Source: a virus
Lineage: Duplodnaviria > Caudoviricetes
Virus record (IMG/VR): IMGVR_UViG_3300044983_000399
Location: 1 to 41,172 of that record
Length of the DNA: 41,172 nucleotides
Direction: 5' to 3' (one strand)
Shown here: piece after piece, positions 2,915-39,950 of the stretch
How the letters are laid out: each line of letters starts with the position of its first letter
How positions within the stretch are numbered: the stretch's first letter is position 1
The notes under the pieces: model-generated
Seen by the model: the letters and a program-made list of their open reading frames with translations, nothing else
What the model was told of the DNA's origin: nothing
Database searches by the model: none
Position numbers and translations under genes: made by a program

Positions 2915-3892
2915 TTAGTCTCTCCACACCCATGACGAAGGTGTGAGTGCGCTTGAGAGGTGTCCAGCAGTGGTTACATAGACCTTGCAGTCTAATAACA
3001 GACTGAGCCCCGCATTGATCAACACGGATTTGATATCTTGCTCGCCTGCTGCGGTCGTGGGCTGGTTCAGTACCACTACGAGATGGAGCTGAACTTTTCG
3101 ATTTGATACGTTTGTGATCGTTTGTGATGCTAAGTAAGCATTTTCCAGCGTTGCTTTAAATCGTGACGGTGAAAATCTGTTGTCTGGAAAGTACTTTACT
3201 TCTGCTATGTGGATTGTTTCACCTTGATCGGCAACAGCATCAAAGATAATTGGCTTTTTGCGTCCTGGAATTTCGAATTTGACTTTCGAGGAGAAATTTA
3301 TCTTGGTGGCCTTTTTTAACTTTTCCACTGATCTTTTTTCAATGTATTCAAGTTTTGCTATCTGTTCAATGTTGCTTTTTATTGCAAGCCCTTCCAGGTC
3401 GAACATTTGTTCTGTCTGTTTATCAGATAGCTCAACATCGTTTGATTTCTCATCGGAAGGACTACTATTCATTGATTCAGGTTTCGAGGTCTCTCTTGCA
3501 GGGGGCTCAGAGTTGGCTGGTGGAGTGGGTTCAACAACCTCTGCGTAAGCCGGTTCCTTTGTTTCCTCCACCTCCGCAACAAGCTTTTCGTCACGTTCAG
3601 TCGTCGTAACAATCCCAAATAAATTTAGAAAGTGATCTTGGTTTGAGTAGTCTGATGGAGCATATAGTGTTTTATGGTTGAAGTTTAAAGTCAAAAAAAA
3701 GATTCCCACGAGGAATGCAGGAAATAGCATCAAGAACCAAATATAGATGGCTTGATTTTCAGGGGCGATAAAAGGTAAAACTATAGTGCCACTTATTTCC
3801 GCAATGGCCGCAAACTGGGATATAACTGTCAGAGGATTTTTTATGTGGCCAACATTGCTCTTCATATCTATCCTTGATGGTTTAAACTTCAT
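2915..3892 (-). CDS. Accessory membrane protein with C-terminal PD-(D/E)XK-like motif, cotranscribed with repressor
   Basis: AT-rich; two N-terminal hydrophobic segments, acidic/Pro linker, FDAV-x9-AEVKY; ATGA overlap with the cI stop. Confidence 0.75.
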   Translation of the reverse strand: MKFKPSRIDMKSNVGHIKNPLTVISQFAAIAEISGTIVLPFIAPENQAIYIWFLMLFPAFLVGIFFLTLNFNHKTLYAPSDYSNQDHFLNLFGIVTTTERDEKLVAEVEETKEPAYAEVVEPTPPANSEPPARETSKPESMNSSPSDEKSNDVELSDKQTEQMFDLEGLAIKSNIEQIAKLEYIEKRSVEKLKKATKINFSSKVKFEIPGRKKPIIFDAVADQGETIHIAEVKYFPDNRFSPSRFKATLENAYLASQTITNVSNRKVQLHLVVVLNQPTTAAGEQDIKSVLINAGLSLLLDCKVYVTTAGHLSSALTPSSWVWRD

Positions 3893-32484: not shown

Positions 32485-33186
32485 TCACACATACTTGGGT
32501 GGCACCGGCAGCAGTAAGTCAGCCCCCCGGTTATTCAAACTCCCCACTGCTTTGCCAACGGCATACCACTCAAAGTCCTCCACAGGCTGGCAACATTCCT
32601 CTGCTATTTCCTCGGCTCGGGCTGGAGTAAGGTCGGGGTCGATCCATTCCCTGGCGTATCTAGGTGTCAGCACCAACGGCTTGCGGTCGTGGATGTCCAC
32701 CATGCCCTGGTCACTGGCGGCGGTGATGATGACGAACCCATCGCCGTCCTGGGGATGCAGGCCTGGATGCACCTGGGCTAGTGCGCCAAAGAACATGGGT
32801 TTCTGACTCTTCAGGCAAATGAAGTAGGGCTGCTTTCTCTTCTGATCGTCAGGGTCTTTGACCCATTCAAACCACCCTTCACTCGGCACCAGGGCTCGGC
32901 CATTTGGCCAGAGTTGCTTGAAGAACTTTCCCGTGGTGACCGTCTCTACGCGTGCGTTGATCGGATCGGGGCGCTTGCCCTTGGCCCAGAACGGCGTCCA
33001 TCCCCATTTGACCGCAGCGATATGCAGCCCATCCTTAGCAGCGTGCAGTAACTGCACCCGTGTCGACGGTGCGACGTTGTAGCGATCAATAGGCTGAGCG
33101 TCGTAGCCGCTGAACAGCTCTATCTGGGGGCTCAGTTCTTCAATGAAAACCGCCATCCCTTCGTACTGCACGAATCGCCCGCACAT
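32485..33186 (-). CDS. SOS response-associated peptidase (SRAP; YedK/HMCES family)
   Basis: MCGRF N-terminus, YNVAP, INAR-ET, FEW, IHDR-P. Confidence 0.93.
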   Translation of the reverse strand: MCGRFVQYEGMAVFIEELSPQIELFSGYDAQPIDRYNVAPSTRVQLLHAAKDGLHIAAVKWGWTPFWAKGKRPDPINARVETVTTGKFFKQLWPNGRALVPSEGWFEWVKDPDDQKRKQPYFICLKSQKPMFFGALAQVHPGLHPQDGDGFVIITAASDQGMVDIHDRKPLVLTPRYAREWIDPDLTPARAEEIAEECCQPVEDFEWYAVGKAVGSLNNRGADLLLPVPPKYV

Positions 33187-33251
33187 ACGCACCTCTCCGC
33201 CTGTCGAAATCCCCTACAGAAAAATTGACCGCAAGCGTCCTACAAAGTTAA

Positions 33252-33267
33252 CTGTACATTCGTACAG
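33252..33267. promoter_or_regulatory. LexA box between divergent SRAP and umuD
   Basis: CTGTACATTCGTACAG. Confidence 0.85.
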
Positions 33268-33287
33268 TATCTATAAAAGGCCGCATC

Positions 33288-33713
33288 ATGAGCTTCACCA
33301 TTCTAGGTCCTATCGCTGAGGTAGGCGCGAAGCTGCCTATGTGTTCGTTCCAAGTTCCGGCTGGCTTTCCTTCGCCAGCAGCGGATCACATTGAGCAGCA
33401 CATCTCATTGGATGAGGTCCTGAATATCCGCGCACCACATGTTTACCTGGTAGCCATCACGGGAGAAAGCATGCAGGGGATTGGTATCTTCGAAGGCGAT
33501 CTCGCGGTGGTTGATCGTGCCATTGAGCCCGCGCACGGGCACGTGGTGGTGGCTTTGCTGAACAATGAGCCCGTCTGCAAGCGCCTATGTAAGCGCGGCC
33601 GGGATGTTGTCCTTCTTTCAGAAAACTCCAAATACCCGGCGCGGCACGTTCTTGAAGGGGATGAGTTGTCAATTTGGGGTGTGATCACTAGCACAGTGCG
33701 CAGCCATGTCTAA
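33288..33713 (+). CDS. umuD: Pol V accessory subunit UmuD/RulA
   Basis: VPAGFPSPA, GESM, CKRL, IWGV. Confidence 0.93.
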   Translation: MSFTILGPIAEVGAKLPMCSFQVPAGFPSPAADHIEQHISLDEVLNIRAPHVYLVAITGESMQGIGIFEGDLAVVDRAIEPAHGHVVVALLNNEPVCKRLCKRGRDVVLLSENSKYPARHVLEGDELSIWGVITSTVRSHV

Positions 33714-34983
33714 GCGGCAATCGACCTTTGCGCTCGTTGACTGCAACAGCTTCTATGCTAGTTGCGAGCGGGTATTCCGGCCGGATTTGGCGAAGGTGCC
33801 CATCGTGGTGCTGAGCAACAACGACGGCTGTGTCATCGCGCGCAGTTACGACGCGAAGCCTTTCATCAAGATGGGCGAGCCGTATTTCCAGATCAAGCAC
33901 AAGCTCAAGCAGCACGGCATTGTGCCGTTCTCCTCCAACTACGCATTTTACGGCGACATGAGCGAGCGCGTGATGAGTCTGATCGAGTCATTGGTGCCAG
34001 CAGTTGAGGTGTACAGCATTGATGAGGCGTTCGCTGACTTGACTGGCATTGTTGGGTTGGATGCTTTGGGTCGCCAGATTCGGGCTCAGGTGCTTCGCTG
34101 TACGGGTATTCCTGTCGGTGTTGGTATCGCTCACACCAAGACTCTGGCGAAGCTGGCGAACCACACGGCGAAACGTCTTCAGGCGCAGACGGGTGGTGTG
34201 GTCAACATTACCGATCCAATTAAACGCGATTGGGTGCTGCGCAATACAGACGTGGCAGAGGTATGGGGCGTTGGCCGCAAGATGAAACTGCACCTGGATG
34301 CCTTGGGCATAAAATCCGCTATGGATTTGGCAAGGGCGGACCCGTGGGCGCTTCGCAAGAAGTTCAGCGTTGTGATCGAGAAGACGGCCAGGGAGCTGGG
34401 CGGCACCTCTTGTCTGGAACTGGACGAGCCTGATCCTCCAAAGCAGGAAATCTGCTGCAGCCGGATGTTCGGCATGAGGCTAACCGAGTTGGCACCCATC
34501 AGAGAGGCAGTGGCCACCTACATGATACGGGCCTCGGAAAAGCTCCGTGCTCAGAATTCGCTCTGCAAGAAGGTCCGTGTGTGCATCCGCACCGGTATGT
34601 TCAACCCGGACGAAGCTAAGTATGCGAATGGGGTAGTAGTGGACATGCCGTATCCAACCGATGATGTTCGCCTACTCACCAAGGCTGCCGTAGACGCACT
34701 GGACCGGATATTCCGGCCTGGATTCAAGTACAGCAAGGCCGAAGTGCTGCTGCTCAACCTATGCCAGCCTGGCGAGTACACCGATGATCTTTTCGCACTT
34801 TCGCAGCCGGCAGAGTCCACCCGGGTAATGACGGTCTTGGACCAGATTAACGGCCGGTGGGGGCGAGGCACCCTTCGAGCTGCAAGCGTGCCAGCTAACC
34901 CTGACTGGGGTATGCGTCGCGAGATGATGAGTCAAAGCTACACAACCAAGCTCGATCAGCTTTGGTCGGTAGCCTGTAAATAA
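33706..34983 (+). CDS. umuC: Y-family DNA polymerase V UmuC/RulB
   Basis: DCNSFYASCE, VLSNNDGC, YSIDE, W-MRRE-S-YTT. Confidence 0.96.
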   Translation: MSKRQSTFALVDCNSFYASCERVFRPDLAKVPIVVLSNNDGCVIARSYDAKPFIKMGEPYFQIKHKLKQHGIVPFSSNYAFYGDMSERVMSLIESLVPAVEVYSIDEAFADLTGIVGLDALGRQIRAQVLRCTGIPVGVGIAHTKTLAKLANHTAKRLQAQTGGVVNITDPIKRDWVLRNTDVAEVWGVGRKMKLHLDALGIKSAMDLARADPWALRKKFSVVIEKTARELGGTSCLELDEPDPPKQEICCSRMFGMRLTELAPIREAVATYMIRASEKLRAQNSLCKKVRVCIRTGMFNPDEAKYANGVVVDMPYPTDDVRLLTKAAVDALDRIFRPGFKYSKAEVLLLNLCQPGEYTDDLFALSQPAESTRVMTVLDQINGRWGRGTLRAASVPANPDWGMRREMMSQSYTTKLDQLWSVACK

Positions 34984-34986
34984 CTG

Positions 34987-35006
34987 CTGCTTTCGGCCAA
35001 AAGCGG
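34987..35006 (+). repeat. Left 20-bp imperfect inverted repeat flanking the accessory cassette
   Basis: CTGCTTTCGGCCAAAAGCGG; 17/20 match to the reverse complement of 39711-39730. Confidence 0.6.
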
Positions 35007-35374: not shown

Positions 35375-35424
35375 GGCCTGGGCCTAGGCTAAGAGGTTAC
35401 TACCTCTTCGCCTAGGCCCAGGCC
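35375..35424. other. Long near-perfect hairpin downstream of the SAMD9-like gene
   Basis: GGCCTGGGCCTAGGC-T-AAGAGGT-TACT-ACCTCTT-C-GCCTAGGCCCAGGCC. Confidence 0.8.
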
Positions 35425-35442: not shown

Positions 35443-38400
35443 TTATAGAACTTTCACCGCCCATGCTCTTGGGCCATCGTAGCTAAAGCCCAAATAGCAA
35501 CTCACGCGGACGTTCTCGGAGCGACCACGGTCTAACCCGAGCGGTCCTGGAACAAAGAAAGCTCTAATACCTCCTGCAAGCTCAATTTCTCCGGCTTGAG
35601 GACCAGTTATTGATAAGACTGATCCCTCCACTCGCTCAAGGTCCATAGCATCTGACCAGAAATCGATTTTTCTATCCCACTCCCCAAGTTGATCTGTGTG
35701 GGTTATTCTTTTCAAGCCCACACCACTTGAAAGCCATTCAAAGCTCAGCTTTCTGCTGCGCCTCAAGCGACTTATATTTCGGCATTCCTCTAGTTCTTTT
35801 TGATATTTCTCAAAAGCTAGAATTGACCCGTCCAATGCCTGGATGGCGTAGAGCACAGAAAGATAATAAGGGGCATCACTACTCGATTGAATGCTTTTCC
35901 AATATGCGACTTTTTCAATTGCTGAATCTACACTCGGAGGAGCGTTCAAAAAGCGTGACGCCTGAATCCATAACCTAACGTTAGCATCATTTCCCGGTTC
36001 TTCCGATAAATTTTCATCTAGCAAAGTTACGCAGCGTTCTATCTCTTTATTGCTCAGGTTTTCCCACTTTCTGCCTCGTCGGGCCAAGTAAGTCCAGACA
36101 ATCTGCCGGCGGATCGGGGGCGCATAAATGCCGCTTCTTTCAGGATTGTCTAGCAGGCTCTGCCAGCGTTGCAGTGCTATTTCGTGAGAGCCATAGAGCC
36201 TATCTAGTTCAGCTCGACATACTTCCTCATAGTCACTTGAATTGCTACGGGTGTTCATCCTACGGACAGTAGAGAGAAAGGTTTCTGCGCGTTCGAAAGC
36301 TTCTTTGAGCCATTTATTTTGGCTTTTACTAGACGCGTCCACTGGCGATAGTTTTTTTGCCTTGGCTGCGTACTCAAGAACCTTGATTATGAGCTGTACC
36401 TCACTAATATACTTGTGTTCATCGTCCGCACTAAGGTCTCTTGAGTGATCGAAGGATAAGGATGCCGCTGCAGCTGAGTCTAGGACTAAGTCCAAATCAA
36501 AAGAATTTTCAATTTTGTAGTAAGCCTCAGAGCGGTCGACCATGCCCTTCATGTGATGGAGCACTGAGTCGCCAGGCTCCAAATTGATAGCGGTTTCCAA
36601 AGAGTCTCTGGCCTCATCGAAACGTTGCAGTTGAAGTGAGTATAAGCGCCCAAGGTGGGCCCAATAATGAGGCTCGTTTGGAAACAGCCCGACAATATGA
36701 TTCAGTAATCTCAACCTCCCTTCCGGCGTTGGGATGTCCATCACCAATTGTGAGAAATATCGTTCACCCGAACTTACTGTGCCCAGCAGATCGGAAGCGT
36801 TACGATAAAAGAAAGTCCTAGTCACTACCTCACTTAACTTATCGGTTGCGGTATTGTTAAGAGACCGACAAAATTCCACAAACTCGCAGGAAATGTCGAC
36901 GAGTCCGCCTTTCCAAGTGCGGGAATCCGCACCATTTTTAGTGAGGTTCTGAACCAGTACTTCTTTTCCGATTTGGTAGTGCATCGGCCTCCACACTCCC
37001 GCACTCTCTTCTACGAGCAGCCCTATCGCCGCAGGAGATAAAGCTTTACGCAAATCAACTATTTTCGTTGCTGGCAGACTTAGAAAGCTTGAGAAATCTT
37101 GCGCATTGAGACTTTGTTGGCCGTAGACGTACGCAAGGCTAAAGTATGTGAGAATCTTTTTCTGACTTTCCGGAAGACTTTCTAGATGCCGGGCAACATA
37201 GGAATTTAGTCCGTCGAAATTTTCGTTAAATGCGGTCAGGCCATACAATAGTACCGTAGGGTTCTGCGATTGAGTTAAGTTCCTTAGCTCATCCGCTTTG
37301 TCCGGGCACACATTCGAAAATGCGATATTGAATCTGCCAGCCTCCATACTTTCGAGCTGGCTATCCACCTCGAACACTTGCTGAGCCTTCCTAGGCGGCC
37401 CATTTAAGCGTCGAAAAACCTGGAGAAAGACAGATGGGATCTGCCGAGAAGCGAGCAAGTCGCTTAACCCTTCGCTGTCCTTATCCGAAATTACCCCGCC
37501 TTCTCTCAATATTAGAATCGGATTCTCGGTTGCCTGATAGATTCGTTGGATTCTCTCAATCGTCTCTCTGGGCTTACAGTGATTGAGTACTATCGTTGGG
37601 AACTCTTCGTGGATATCCCAAAGTATCCTTCTGGCAAGTGTCGAGCCTCCAGCCCCAGGGTAATGAAATATATTTATCGTGGAAGACTTTCTTGACCGCA
37701 AATCACTTAAAACCAGTTTCTTGATCATCGAGGTCTTAATGCGATCAATATCTGCTCGCAGGTTAAGTCCTTCCCATGTTACTGGAAAGCCTTTTAGGAA
37801 AGCTGTTTTGTCATAGCTTAACTCTACCTGCCCTATGCCAAGGTGTACTAGCTCCAGATCCTCCTGCAACCAGTTATAATCTTGAGGGGGGATTATTTTT
37901 TTGATTCCATCTCTACCGGGCAGAAGTATAGAGTTTATTCCGCTCGCTTTTTTTGCGACGTCTAGTGAGGCCAGACCTTCGAAAAATTGTCCTGCACTCA
38001 GTTCTACGATTTCGGACTCGCTGCTCTCGGCGATAGCTTTTAGAGATTCGGCTTGATCCGTAATAATAACTTTTGTGACGCTGTCTCCAAGCAACTCAAC
38101 AGCATCGTCTAAGCATCTCGATAAGTGCTTAGAAAGGGACAAATCGCTCCAAAGAGCAACTAGAACAACCGGTTCAGAGCTGCTTTTGGCGATAGTGCTA
38201 AATTTTTCCTTGAAATCTTGGGCGTAGACCGTCAACCACTCGTTCCAGTTCCTGCTTACACATGTGATATCACGGCCGGTCCTTCCGCGTGCAAAGTACC
38301 AGGTCGTGGATAGCTGTAGATTACCAGTCAACTGATCCCCTTTAGTTGCCACATGCACGCTCCGAGCGCTGGCAAGGCTTTCAATTCCCTTAATCGTACT

Positions 38401-39117
38401 GGAAGTTGCAGATGCTTCTACGTCGAAATCAACAATTAAGTTCCAGTCAACGCCGGATATATGTTCTAGATCCAAACTCGGCCTCTGATCTTCCTGGGCT
38501 AACAACAATATATATCGCTGCCTTTTGGAAGTTAGGTCTACTAGGTTTCGTAATCTATCCCAAGCTGATATTCCTTGATCACCGGTTCGGCCTTGTAGAT
38601 ATTCACCTGTTGAAAACCAATGATAAATTAACTTGCTCTCATCATGGTTTGCTTCATCATTCATCGTGCTTCGACGCCAATACACTGTTTTTGGTATCAG
38701 TGTTTTTTTATCGAGACTTTTGCTTTCGAGGATTACGAATGGTCCAACCATTGATTCCCTGTCCAGAATTTCGATGACCCCATATTGTTTTCCCTTATAG
38801 GAGACCTCAATATATCTAAACTTTGGAAACGGGTAGACCATGCCGTCAAGCTTTTGTTGTAGTGTGTTGTCATCTTCGTGCTCTTCTATGCCGAGAAGTT
38901 CACGCTCTCCGTTTGCTTTAGCTTTTACTCCAATGATGATATAAGCGGAGCCCAAGCGCGGAGTGTTCGCCATGCTGACGACGTCTTTAACAAATCTTGC
39001 ACGCTTCCGGTGAACATCAAATGGGTCTAAACCATGAAACTTGTAGCTTTCAGATTTGAAGTCTAACGTATCCGACTCCGAGCGTCCGAGTAGTTCCTCA
39101 AAAGCATTTTCGTCCAT
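35443..39117 (-). CDS. SAMD9-like protein (AlbA_2/Schlafen, SIR2-like, STAND-like NTPase, TPR, OB-fold); putative anti-phage defence (Avs9-like)
   Basis: ESDTLDFK..KDVVSMANT..YIIIGV; VDWNLIVDFD; FHYPGAGGSTLARRILWD; HYWAHLGRLY; YLGFSYDGPRAW. Confidence 0.85.
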   Translation of the reverse strand: MDENAFEELLGRSESDTLDFKSESYKFHGLDPFDVHRKRARFVKDVVSMANTPRLGSAYIIIGVKAKANGERELLGIEEHEDDNTLQQKLDGMVYPFPKFRYIEVSYKGKQYGVIEILDRESMVGPFVILESKSLDKKTLIPKTVYWRRSTMNDEANHDESKLIYHWFSTGEYLQGRTGDQGISAWDRLRNLVDLTSKRQRYILLLAQEDQRPSLDLEHISGVDWNLIVDFDVEASATSSTIKGIESLASARSVHVATKGDQLTGNLQLSTTWYFARGRTGRDITCVSRNWNEWLTVYAQDFKEKFSTIAKSSSEPVVLVALWSDLSLSKHLSRCLDDAVELLGDSVTKVIITDQAESLKAIAESSESEIVELSAGQFFEGLASLDVAKKASGINSILLPGRDGIKKIIPPQDYNWLQEDLELVHLGIGQVELSYDKTAFLKGFPVTWEGLNLRADIDRIKTSMIKKLVLSDLRSRKSSTINIFHYPGAGGSTLARRILWDIHEEFPTIVLNHCKPRETIERIQRIYQATENPILILREGGVISDKDSEGLSDLLASRQIPSVFLQVFRRLNGPPRKAQQVFEVDSQLESMEAGRFNIAFSNVCPDKADELRNLTQSQNPTVLLYGLTAFNENFDGLNSYVARHLESLPESQKKILTYFSLAYVYGQQSLNAQDFSSFLSLPATKIVDLRKALSPAAIGLLVEESAGVWRPMHYQIGKEVLVQNLTKNGADSRTWKGGLVDISCEFVEFCRSLNNTATDKLSEVVTRTFFYRNASDLLGTVSSGERYFSQLVMDIPTPEGRLRLLNHIVGLFPNEPHYWAHLGRLYSLQLQRFDEARDSLETAINLEPGDSVLHHMKGMVDRSEAYYKIENSFDLDLVLDSAAAASLSFDHSRDLSADDEHKYISEVQLIIKVLEYAAKAKKLSPVDASSKSQNKWLKEAFERAETFLSTVRRMNTRSNSSDYEEVCRAELDRLYGSHEIALQRWQSLLDNPERSGIYAPPIRRQIVWTYLARRGRKWENLSNKEIERCVTLLDENLSEEPGNDANVRLWIQASRFLNAPPSVDSAIEKVAYWKSIQSSSDAPYYLSVLYAIQALDGSILAFEKYQKELEECRNISRLRRSRKLSFEWLSSGVGLKRITHTDQLGEWDRKIDFWSDAMDLERVEGSVLSITGPQAGEIELAGGIRAFFVPGPLGLDRGRSENVRVSCYLGFSYDGPRAWAVKVL

Positions 39118-39636
39118 GCGAGCAAAACCTAATTTTGTTGGCTTGATTACTCGTCCCTTGATGCAAATTACCGGGGCCCGGTATGTCGAGGTACGAAACT
39201 GTCTAAACTATGCCGGTTCCGCGCCTGGACAGCAAGCTGTGGCCAGCATAATAGATCCTGGGTAGATCACTCTCTTGCTATCTGCCAAGTTGAGCTTGAC
39301 TAGTGGGGCGTGTTATACACTCGCAGTTACCTTCACTATTCTCATCACATAGCGAAGGGCTTTCTATGCTGAACGTAAGCATGCTGGATCCCGCAGTGTT
39401 GGAAACATTGTCAGTTTTGCTCGCGTCGATCCAGCCCCTCAGACGTGTTTCAAAGTCTAGCATCCCCCGTCAATTGCGTGCATTTAAGGTGGCGGCATGA
39501 CCGCCTGGCCTGTCAGGAAGCGTTCTGAATATTTTAGTCTAGGCTCAGTAATTTAGAGTCTGATAGCGGTATAAGCGTGTAGTGCATTCCAAGAAAAACG
39601 CGCGTAACTCGTCGGAGTCACGGGCGCTTTTGAATG

Positions 39637-39664
39637 TGGCGGTGACGGAGAAATCCGAACTCTC
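39637..39664 (-). other. Degenerate tRNA 3'-end fragment (att-like scar)
   Basis: Minus strand GAGAGTTCGGATTTCTCCGTCACCGCCA: T-arm-like GTTCG plus acceptor end CCA; no full tRNA body. Confidence 0.5.
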
Positions 39665-39710: not shown

Positions 39711-39730
39711 CTGCTATTGGCCGAAAGCGG
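39711..39730 (-). repeat. Right 20-bp imperfect inverted repeat flanking the accessory cassette
   Basis: CTGCTATTGGCCGAAAGCGG. Confidence 0.6.
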
Positions 39731-39801
39731 TCCGTTATGATTTTCAAATTGACCATCATCAGGCTTGCCCGACGCGACCGTGAACTCTGAGGGATGAAGG
39801 G

Positions 39802-39950
39802 GGGGCAAAAATGGGGCAAATCACACGCCAATCTATGCCATTTAATGCCTGTTATGAATTTAAGCAGTCTGCTGAACAGAGGCATTCTGACCAGCAACCA
39901 CGGGACTTTGCCCTAAAGTTTTCCGCATACTCCTACACAATCGAGGTGTG
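39802..39950. other. Putative prophage att end (integrase arm-type and Xis-type repeats)
   Basis: GGGGCAAA twice (39802, 39813); ACGCCA/ATGCCA/ATGCCT at 10-bp spacing (39825-39850). Confidence 0.5.

What the first reader, a model, noticed from the sequence alone, without database searches (positions are those of the whole stretch)
35443..39117. Prophage-encoded SAMD9-like (Schlafen/AlbA_2, STAND-like NTPase, TPR, OB) candidate anti-phage protein
Seen: an AT-rich 1224-aa gene opposite to the phage late genes. It has an N-terminal AlbA_2 signature (ESDTLDFK, KDVVSMANT, YIIIGV), VDWNLIVDFD, a Lys-less P-loop FHYPGAGGSTLARRILWD, TPR-like HYWAHLGRLY..FDEA repeats and C-terminal VSCYLGFSYDGPRAW. 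Established: metazoan antiviral SAMD9/9L have this same domain order, a similarly Lys-less P-loop (recalled as HxPGCGGTTLA) and a terminal YLGFSxxGPxA OB-fold; their AlbA_2 domain cleaves tRNA. Bacterial homologues have been described, so the family itself may not be new. Inference: a single-gene sensor-effector that detects an incoming phage and shuts down translation, carried by a temperate phage to protect its lysogen. The acidic residue usual after the AlbA_2 GVx motif is Ala here (GVKA), so catalysis may differ.
Basis: partly seen in the sequence, partly recalled or inferred. Interest (0 to 1): 0.92.

Follow-up and report, generated by a model that had tools for sequence, protein, structure and literature searches.

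The report
Prophage-carried Avs9 (SAMD9-like) defence cassette
A Pseudomonas-type prophage carries an intact bacterial relative of the human antiviral protein SAMD9, from the already named Avs9 family, on a 4.7-kb DNA block that also occurs between other flanks; it likely protects the host by cutting tRNA when another phage infects, which remains untested.

Summary
The gene at 35443-39117 (-) is intact and 1224 aa long, with AlbA_2, SIR2-like, STAND, TPR and OB domains. The family is known: it is Avs9 (Legrand et al. 2025, PMC12680541). The protein is 60% identical to a P. fluorescens BBc6R8 protein that is almost certainly the tested Avs9, which kills E. coli through D45.

No Walker A lysine occurs in any of 101 homologues. 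The Ala after GVx is also Ala in the BBc6R8 protein. The catalytic E14/D19/K21/D45 are intact, and four SAMD9 nucleotide-switch positions are kept family-wide.

The new part is the context. The gene lies inside the prophage, in a variable low-GC slot after umuC. It sits on a 4.74-kb block bounded by two inverted GGCC-centred palindromes, and five other sequencing studies show the whole block with different flanks. The same site family brackets other, often defensive, cargo in Pseudomonas prophages. An earlier report of this scan noted these sites.

Phage protection, trigger and substrate are untested for Avs9 in the papers found. Verdict: new member of a known kind, interest 0.4.

The parts
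35443..39117 (-). Avs9 gene, 1224 aa, intact, GC 0.46
   Evidence: 60.0% identical to P0123 (QQD56245.1, P. fluorescens BBc6R8)
38650..39078 (-). AlbA_2/Schlafen nuclease domain (aa 14-156) with Ex4DxK (E14, D19, K21) and D45
   Evidence: Pfam PF04326 E 1.2e-11; Foldseek hits to SAMD9 tRNase domains 7ksp and 9o0d; conservation
37945..38565 (-). SIR2-like Rossmann domain (about aa 185-391), with no T-N-Y/F motif; predicted scaffold rather than NADase
   Evidence: model; Foldseek hits to SAMD9, ThsA and SIR2/HerA; profile alignment to SAMD9
36928..37800 (-). STAND/NOD module (about aa 440-730): Walker A H485-x-P-G-x-G-G-S492-T, Walker B E539, Sensor-1 R569, WHD H713
   Evidence: alignment to SAMD9 H737/T744/D799/R837/H985 (with residue roles); invariance in 101 homologues
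35773..36726 (-). TPR/helical sensor region (about aa 798-1115)
   Evidence: model; Pfam TPR_8 below cut-off; TPR hits
35446..35640 (-). C-terminal beta (OB-fold) domain, ending YLGFSYDGPRAW
   Evidence: beta strands in model; aligns with the SAMD9 C-terminus, a weak stretch on its own
34987..35006 (+). left boundary site of the block: 20-bp GGCC-centred quasi-palindrome, 4 nt after the umuC stop
   Evidence: 2 matches in the window, 0 in 100 shuffles; contigs of other studies begin matching at 34983-34993
39711..39730 (+). right boundary site, inverted relative to the left one
   Evidence: contigs of other studies stop matching at 39723-39732
32485..34983 (.). prophage SRAP-umuD-umuC cassette, left flank of the slot
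39802..39950 (+). conserved phage-end (mutS-type att arm and core) element, right flank of the slot; the attR or a relic of it

Best explanation
This is an intact Avs9, a single-gene SAMD9-like protein lying inside a temperate Pseudomonas-type prophage, and it likely acts as an abortive-infection system that cuts host tRNA when a foreign phage trips it. Shown here: the domain order, the intact Schlafen active-site residues, the conserved nucleotide-switch residues, the position inside the phage, and a block with sharp boundary sites found in other contexts. Shown in print for the probable 60%-identical homologue: D45-dependent killing of E. coli. Inferred from SAMD9: an ATP-bound, autoinhibited rest state in which H485 stands in for the Walker A lysine and H713 clamps the WHD, with SIR2 as a non-enzymatic scaffold. 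Inferred from Avs5 and other Avs systems: the TPR/OB region senses a phage protein, and opening and oligomerisation bring the AlbA_2 domains together. Inferred from SAMD9 and RorSlfn5: these cut tRNA anticodon arms and stop translation. Inferred from context: the phage acquired the gene as site-bounded cargo and benefits by protecting its lysogen.
For: Identity with Avs9: strain BBc6R8 in the paper's Supplementary Table 2 and E14/D19/D45/E65 at the same numbers in P0123. Active site intact in 89 of 93 homologues; Ex4(E/D)xK is the tRNase motif required for phage defence by RorSlfn5 (PMC13056530). H485, R569 and H713 are invariant and position 539 is acidic in 101 of 101; they map to SAMD9 residues with tested roles. 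The top Foldseek hits are SAMD9, then the Avs5 structures 9jap and 9nc9. The orthologue in Pseudomonas sp. R1-7 lies in an integrase island with Olokun and Shedu. The same prophage slot holds bSEFIR, PDC-S45, PDC-S39 and HNH/FRG genes in sister phages. The distribution is patchy: 0 of 400 drawn Pseudomonas genomes, yet many phyla.
Against: No paper found shows phage protection, a trigger or a substrate for any Avs9; the authors leave these open. Full-length Avs9 was toxic on induction without phage, so toxicity alone does not show sensing. Defence neighbourhood is modest: clear defence neighbours in 4 of 16 genome loci, generic hits in 3 and none in 9, without a background control. Only 4 of 30 slot ORFs in sister phages hit PADLOC at 1e-5. 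K65 replaces the E65 named in Avs9, and the second Walker B acid (SAMD9 D800) is Gly. No sigma-70 promoter was found upstream, and expression was not examined. Global superposition on closed SAMD9 is poor (TM 0.39, rmsd 35 A).
Confidence: 0.72

Rival explanations
1. It is a defence nuclease, but its trigger or target differs: it senses nucleic acid, a disturbed host process or a plasmid rather than a phage protein, or it cuts rRNA or mRNA rather than tRNA.
For: No Avs9 trigger or substrate is known. An OB fold can bind nucleic acid (PMC5445408). Avs9 is toxic without phage.
Against: Avs5, with which the SAMD9 sensor clusters, responds to the phage proteins JADA and T7 gp1.7. The Ex4DxK Schlafen nucleases in the passages read are tRNases.
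Confidence: 0.15
2. It is a passenger: a cassette that landed at the umuC-stop site, silent or of no use to this phage, or kept by toxicity alone.
For: The block occurs with unrelated flanks. It is rare in phages: none in 50,697 INPHARED records, one other IMG/VR locus. One genome holds 400, 393 and 189-aa pieces, apparently a broken copy. No promoter was found.
Against: The frame is intact, and full-length copies at 97-98% identity exist in several strains. All key residues are kept. The slot repeatedly takes up defence genes.
Confidence: 0.09
3. It is a non-defence signal-transduction STAND protein, as first suggested for bacterial SAMD9 homologues.
For: PMC5445408 proposed signalling roles for bacterial members. 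9 of 16 loci show no PADLOC neighbour.
Against: An intact toxic nuclease domain, carriage on mobile islands, and patchy spread.
Confidence: 0.04

Closest known systems
Avs9 (P. fluorescens A0A7T4VS34; Legrand et al. 2025, PMC12680541)
   Same: Same five domains and nearly the same length; 60% identical to the BBc6R8 protein P0123; E14, D19, D45 at the same positions; Ala66 shared.
   Different: K65 for E65. Carried in a prophage on a site-bounded block; the word 'prophage' does not occur in that paper's main text.
Human SAMD9/SAMD9L (PMC5445408; PMC13600222; bioRxiv 10.64898/2026.02.01.703102)
   Same: AlbA_2-SIR2-like-NOD-TPR-OB order; GG[S/T] Walker A with upstream His; first Walker B acid, Sensor-1 Arg and WHD His kept.
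   Different: No SAM domain; second Walker B acid replaced by Gly; about 16% identity; the AlbA_2 is of a separate lineage according to Legrand et al.
Avs5 (EfAvs5, PaAvs5; PMC11897194, PMC12931631)
   Same: SIR2-STAND-TPR layout; next-best structural match (9jap E 5e-13).
   Different: In Avs5 the SIR2 is the NADase effector and PaAvs5-1 has a canonical GKT; here there is an extra nuclease, no TNY motif and no lysine.
Prokaryotic Schlafens, e.g. RorSlfn5 (PMC13056530)
   Same: Ex4DxK nuclease motif; phage-triggered tRNA cleavage is the model for the effector step.
   Different: RorSlfn5 uses a small Ig-like sensor, not a STAND module.
Integron cassettes (recalled), for the bounded block
   Same: Promiscuous cargo, often defensive, without its own recombinase, between short palindromic sites; found in arrays.
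   Different: Sites are about 20-bp GGCC-centred dyads, mostly in inverted pairs and in 34-bp tandem steps, unlike attC hairpins as recalled; no integrase identified.

Membership tests
Avs9 | N-terminal AlbA_2 domain, no SAM domain | tested here: met
   Pfam PF04326 aa 14-156, E 1.2e-11, starting at the N-terminus
Avs9 | SIR2-like domain after AlbA_2 | tested here: met
   Foldseek to SAMD9, ThsA and SIR2/HerA; profile alignment
Avs9 | STAND P-loop, TPR array, C-terminal OB fold | tested here: met
   Foldseek E 8e-36 to SAMD9 over about 1190 columns; the OB stretch alone is weak by sequence (E 0.8-1.3)
Avs9 | AlbA_2 catalytic acids E14, D19, D45 | tested here: met
Avs9 | fourth named acid, E65 | tested here: not met
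   K65 here; acidic in only 9 of 93 homologues, so it is a feature of the one tested protein, not of the family
Avs9 | AlbA_2-dependent cell killing | not testable with these tools
   shown only for A0A7T4VS34
SAMD9 family (Mekhedov 2017) | GG[T/S] Walker A with conserved upstream His | tested here: met
   H485..G490-G491-S492; His in 101 of 101, Lys in 0 of 101
SAMD9 family (Mekhedov 2017) | stable ATP binding without hydrolysis | not testable with these tools
   4 of 5 named contact positions plus the Walker A Ser/Thr kept; D800 equivalent is Gly
Avs5 | Walker A lysine (GKT, as in PaAvs5-1) | tested here: not met
Avs5 | N-terminal SIR2 NADase with T-N-Y pocket | tested here: not met
   SIR2 is internal, and residues 180-395 hold no TN[YF] (motif); that D230-F-D is the equivalent strand is inferred
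Prophage cargo (moron) | inside the phage ends, in a variable slot, with atypical GC | tested here: met
   the exact attR of this window is not fixed
Integron cassette | attC site and IntI integrase | tested here: inconclusive
   no recombinase ORF in the block; sites do not fold better than shuffles; no formal attC search was run

The most novel reading that the evidence does not exclude
The Avs9 gene is cargo of an undescribed site-specific cassette system of Pseudomonas. GGCC-centred 20-bp dyads in inverted pairs and 34-bp tandem steps let recombinase-less defence blocks be swapped, in either orientation, into a landing site at the umuC stop codon of temperate phages. A SAMD9-type receptor with the human ATP-clamp logic is thereby traded between prophages.
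Probability: 0.4. Interest if true: 0.72.

Novelty: new member of a known kind. Interest (0 to 1): 0.4.

Why it matters
The protein family is not new, but its central question is open: whether Avs9 stops phages, what trips it and what it cuts. A copy taken up by a temperate phage into a slot that often holds defence genes is indirect support for a defence role, and it points to Pseudomonas phages as the test panel. The residue map to SAMD9 predicts that H713A is self-activating and R569A is dead. That makes it a cheap bacterial test of whether the SAMD9 ATP clamp is ancient. The bounded block adds a concrete example of a possibly undescribed way of moving defence genes.

Tried and rejected
Rejected: (1) A new family; it is Avs9. 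(2) Altered catalysis from GVKA. (3) The Lys-less P-loop as a sign of decay. (4) The gene lying outside the phage. (5) The element at 39802-39950 being certainly attR: sisters G088 and G145 end there, in mutS, but sister G003 has the same right flank and ends about 5 kb further on at a tRNA-Ser repeat. A core-pattern search found no direct-repeat pair in 5 genomes.

Empty or uninformative: PADLOC has no full-length model, only a PDC-S50 hit on the AlbA_2 part; PHROGs none; INPHARED none; plasmids AlbA_2-only hits; IMG/VR with the single protein none; JGI metagenomes none. The promoter scan was below chance. Of the 20 runs holding the stretch, only small-share rows were RNA or guessed RNA, and I did not lay them. 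The boundary sites do not fold better than shuffles. The recombinase inside one cassette (L223) occurs in only 1 of 121 site loci, so no mobilising enzyme was identified. No such site lies near six more distant Avs9 relatives. Paper searches for the sites or a recalled name ('tycon', 'tfs') gave nothing relevant, and a search for an umuC hotspot listed nothing on point. A supplement search of PMC13581612 for Avs9 found 0 occurrences. No VIA-align comparison and no complex prediction were obtained.
Full report
Observation. The ORF is as described: 35443-39117, minus strand, 1224 aa. GC is 0.46 against 0.60 for the phage body, and GC3 is 0.46 against 0.79 for the terminase. The window is a virus record of a temperate phage with a lambda-type terminase and portal, a contractile tail, and an SRAP-umuD-umuC cassette directly before the gene. 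It has no integrase or left end.

Domains. Pfam finds AlbA_2 at 14-156 (E 1.2e-11). phmmer against the PDB returns human SAMD9 first (E 3e-8). A 71-sequence family profile raises this to E 3e-41 over positions 130-894. Two AlphaFold2 models (residues 1-400 and 176-1224, mean pLDDT 92) both give SAMD9 as the top Foldseek hit. The N-terminal model also hits the SAMD9 tRNase domains, ThsA and SIR2/HerA. The C-terminal model hits SAMD9 at E 8e-36 over about 1190 columns, then EfAvs5 at 5e-13. The global TM-score is only 0.39 (rmsd 35 A), so the domains match but their arrangement in the model does not.

It is Avs9. Legrand et al. (PMC12680541; I saw the abstract, passages, the data-availability section and supplement search hits) named bacterial proteins with the SAMD9 domains minus SAM 'Avs9'. 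They showed that A0A7T4VS34 kills E. coli on induction unless D45 is mutated. Their Supplementary Table 2 gives the strain as P. fluorescens BBc6R8. P0123 (QQD56245.1, same strain, 1227 aa) has E14, D19, D45 and E65, the four residues they name, and is 60.0% identical to the window protein. That P0123 is the tested protein is inferred from strain and numbering; the paper's supplementary figures and figshare sequence could not be read. Mekhedov et al. (PMC5445408, passages) had already described the bacterial members and the GG[T/S] P-loop.

The two oddities. The homologue search gave 115 proteins among 7993 candidates scored. I kept the 101 of 1150-1260 aa and dropped 14 for length; 93 of the 101 have an aligned N-terminus. 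E14+D19+K21+D45 are intact in 89 of 93, an acid stands at 65 in 9 and at 66 in 12. The BBc6R8 protein reads GVEA, so Ala66 is shared with an active enzyme; the window differs only at K65. Ex4(E/D)xK is the motif needed for tRNA cleavage and defence by RorSlfn5 (PMC13056530, passages). D82 and R148 are invariant and unexplained. No homologue has a Walker A lysine (0 of 101). Reading the alignment (chain offset +139) against the SAMD9 structure paper (PMC13600222, passages and section 7) gives H485=H737, S492=T744, E539=D799, R569=R837 and H713=H985. H485, R569 and H713 are invariant and 539 is acidic in 101 of 101; D800 is replaced by Gly or another small residue. SAMD9 and SAMD9L hold unhydrolysed NTP in a closed state, H985A is self-activating and R837A is dead. 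The SIR2-like part has no TNY motif of the EfAvs5 pocket (PMC11897194, abstract and section 9), so it is probably a scaffold, as in SAMD9.

Inside the phage. Of 79 IMG/VR loci with the closest umuC, 16 show the same 150-bp end element as window 39802-39950, at 0.6-6.4 kb from umuC, with different cargo of GC 0.40-0.54 in between. Many of the others end too soon to tell. In sisters G088 and G145 this element is the right end of a phage integrated in the 5' end of mutS. In G003 it is internal and the phage ends at an 84-bp tRNA-Ser repeat about 5 kb further on. Either way the gene is inside. Slot cargo includes bSEFIR and PDC-S45 (strong hits) and two partial hits, 4 of 30 ORFs in all, DUF4238 and DUF3800, HNH plus FRG, and PDC-S39. 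It also includes plainly metabolic genes (L100).

Spread. Relatives occur in many phyla (147 of 182 candidate stretches) but in 0 of 400 drawn Pseudomonas genomes besides the centre. There are none in INPHARED and one other IMG/VR locus, L079, beside an integrase. The R1-7 orthologue lies in an integrase island with Olokun and Shedu. I scanned 85 neighbours of 16 of the 78 genome loci: 4 loci have clear defence neighbours (Gabija, type III R-M, type II R-M, MTase plus HEC-06), 3 have generic hits and 9 none, with no background control.

A bounded block. I laid 8 of the 24 listed runs. Five (X2, X3, X6, X7, X9; five studies) carry the stretch from 34983-34993 to 39723-39732 at about 96-98% identity and then diverge. 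X11 and X12 are fragmentary but have loose ends at 34989 and 39723. X8 has pieces 99% alike that run from umuC into the block. X2, X3 and X6 share a left flank, so they are not independent contexts. In them the block adjoins the phage-end 73-aa gene in the opposite orientation. The ends fall in two 20-bp GGCC-centred dyads, 34987-35006 and 39711-39730, the only two in the window (0 in 100 shuffles), inverted relative to each other. The same pairs bracket other low-GC cargo in sisters L086, L102 and L131. The exact pattern occurs in 12 of 61 Pseudomonas genomes with 0 control hits. In the first 80 of 122 IMG/VR loci chosen by the site there are 148 sites against 1 control, and GC is lower on the inward side in 76 of 110. 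After removing duplicates, neighbours face inward 22 times, outward 5 and the same way 11 (p 0.0015 for in versus out), and close neighbours sit 33-34 bp apart in all but three listed cases. Among 15 full umuC ends in those site-selected loci, 13 have a site right after. Of 50 cargo ORFs, 10 hit PADLOC at 1e-10 (Tmn, PDC-S28, PDC-S67, PDC-S73, a type II methylase and others); others are regulators or enzymes. No recombinase was found. An earlier report of this scan (e1-6046559) describes the same site family, which is a lead and not independent proof. Three paper searches found no description. I vaguely recall integron-like site-bounded cassettes in print, so novelty here is uncertain.

Mechanism. 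The most likely reading (0.72) is an ATP-clamped, autoinhibited receptor that opens on sensing a phage protein, oligomerises and cuts tRNA. The trigger step rests on Avs5 (PMC12931631, passages; PMC11897194) and on the clustering of the Avs5 and SAMD9 sensors (bioRxiv 10.64898/2026.01.04.697583, passages). No phage protection by Avs9 appeared in searches or 78; apart from the papers named, I saw those results only as listings.

Verdict. Observation confirmed; interpretation partly supported; new member of a known kind. The first-stage 0.92 is too high. Interest is 0.4, carried by the open Avs9 question, the testable SAMD9 residue map and the cassette context.

Noticed in passing
window 34987-35006 and 39711-39730; L086, L102, L131, L192-L271: A family of GGCC-centred 20-bp dyads that bracket swappable cargo, often right after the umuC stop, with 34-bp tandem spacing; no recombinase found.
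   Followed up: partly
window 39802-39950; L181, L183, L188, L190: Sister prophages integrate in the 5' end of mutS and supply a replacement mutS start; the window's copy of the core is not followed by the mutS 5' piece and may be a relic, as in G003.
   Followed up: partly
window 39632-39664: A short stretch shared with many genomes whose continuation in other contigs looks like tRNA-Ser (recalled likeness); probably a relic attachment site inside the block. ARAGORN finds no tRNA in the window.
   Followed up: no
window 35375-35424: A perfect 15-bp inverted repeat with an inner 6-bp stem, 18 nt after the Avs9 stop; no U-tail; related copies differ by small insertions here.
   Followed up: no
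window 2915-3892 (-): A second low-GC gene (325 aa) next to the repressor, with no Pfam or PADLOC hit and a partial phrog_26238 hit; sister G003 has a gap in similarity here with a 365-aa ORF, so possibly a second cargo slot.
   Followed up: no
L079 6697-10335: A second virus-borne Avs9 (37% identical), beside an integrase and a Sak4-like gene.
   Followed up: partly
P0120-P0122: Pieces of 400, 393 and 189 aa from a 6.79-Mb contig in the same 90% cluster: apparently a broken copy.
   Followed up: no
window protein D82, R148: Invariant in 101 of 101 homologues but not among the named catalytic residues; D82 could replace the variable fourth acid.
   Followed up: no
L085, L107, L123, L141, L143, L147 (slot after umuC); L198, L223, L131 (between sites): Many cargo ORFs of 200-1250 aa with no Pfam or PADLOC hit: candidate unknown defence genes.
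   Followed up: no
P0114: A 1568-aa relative with kinase-type Pfam domains instead of AlbA_2, like the kinase variants described in PMC5445408.
   Followed up: no
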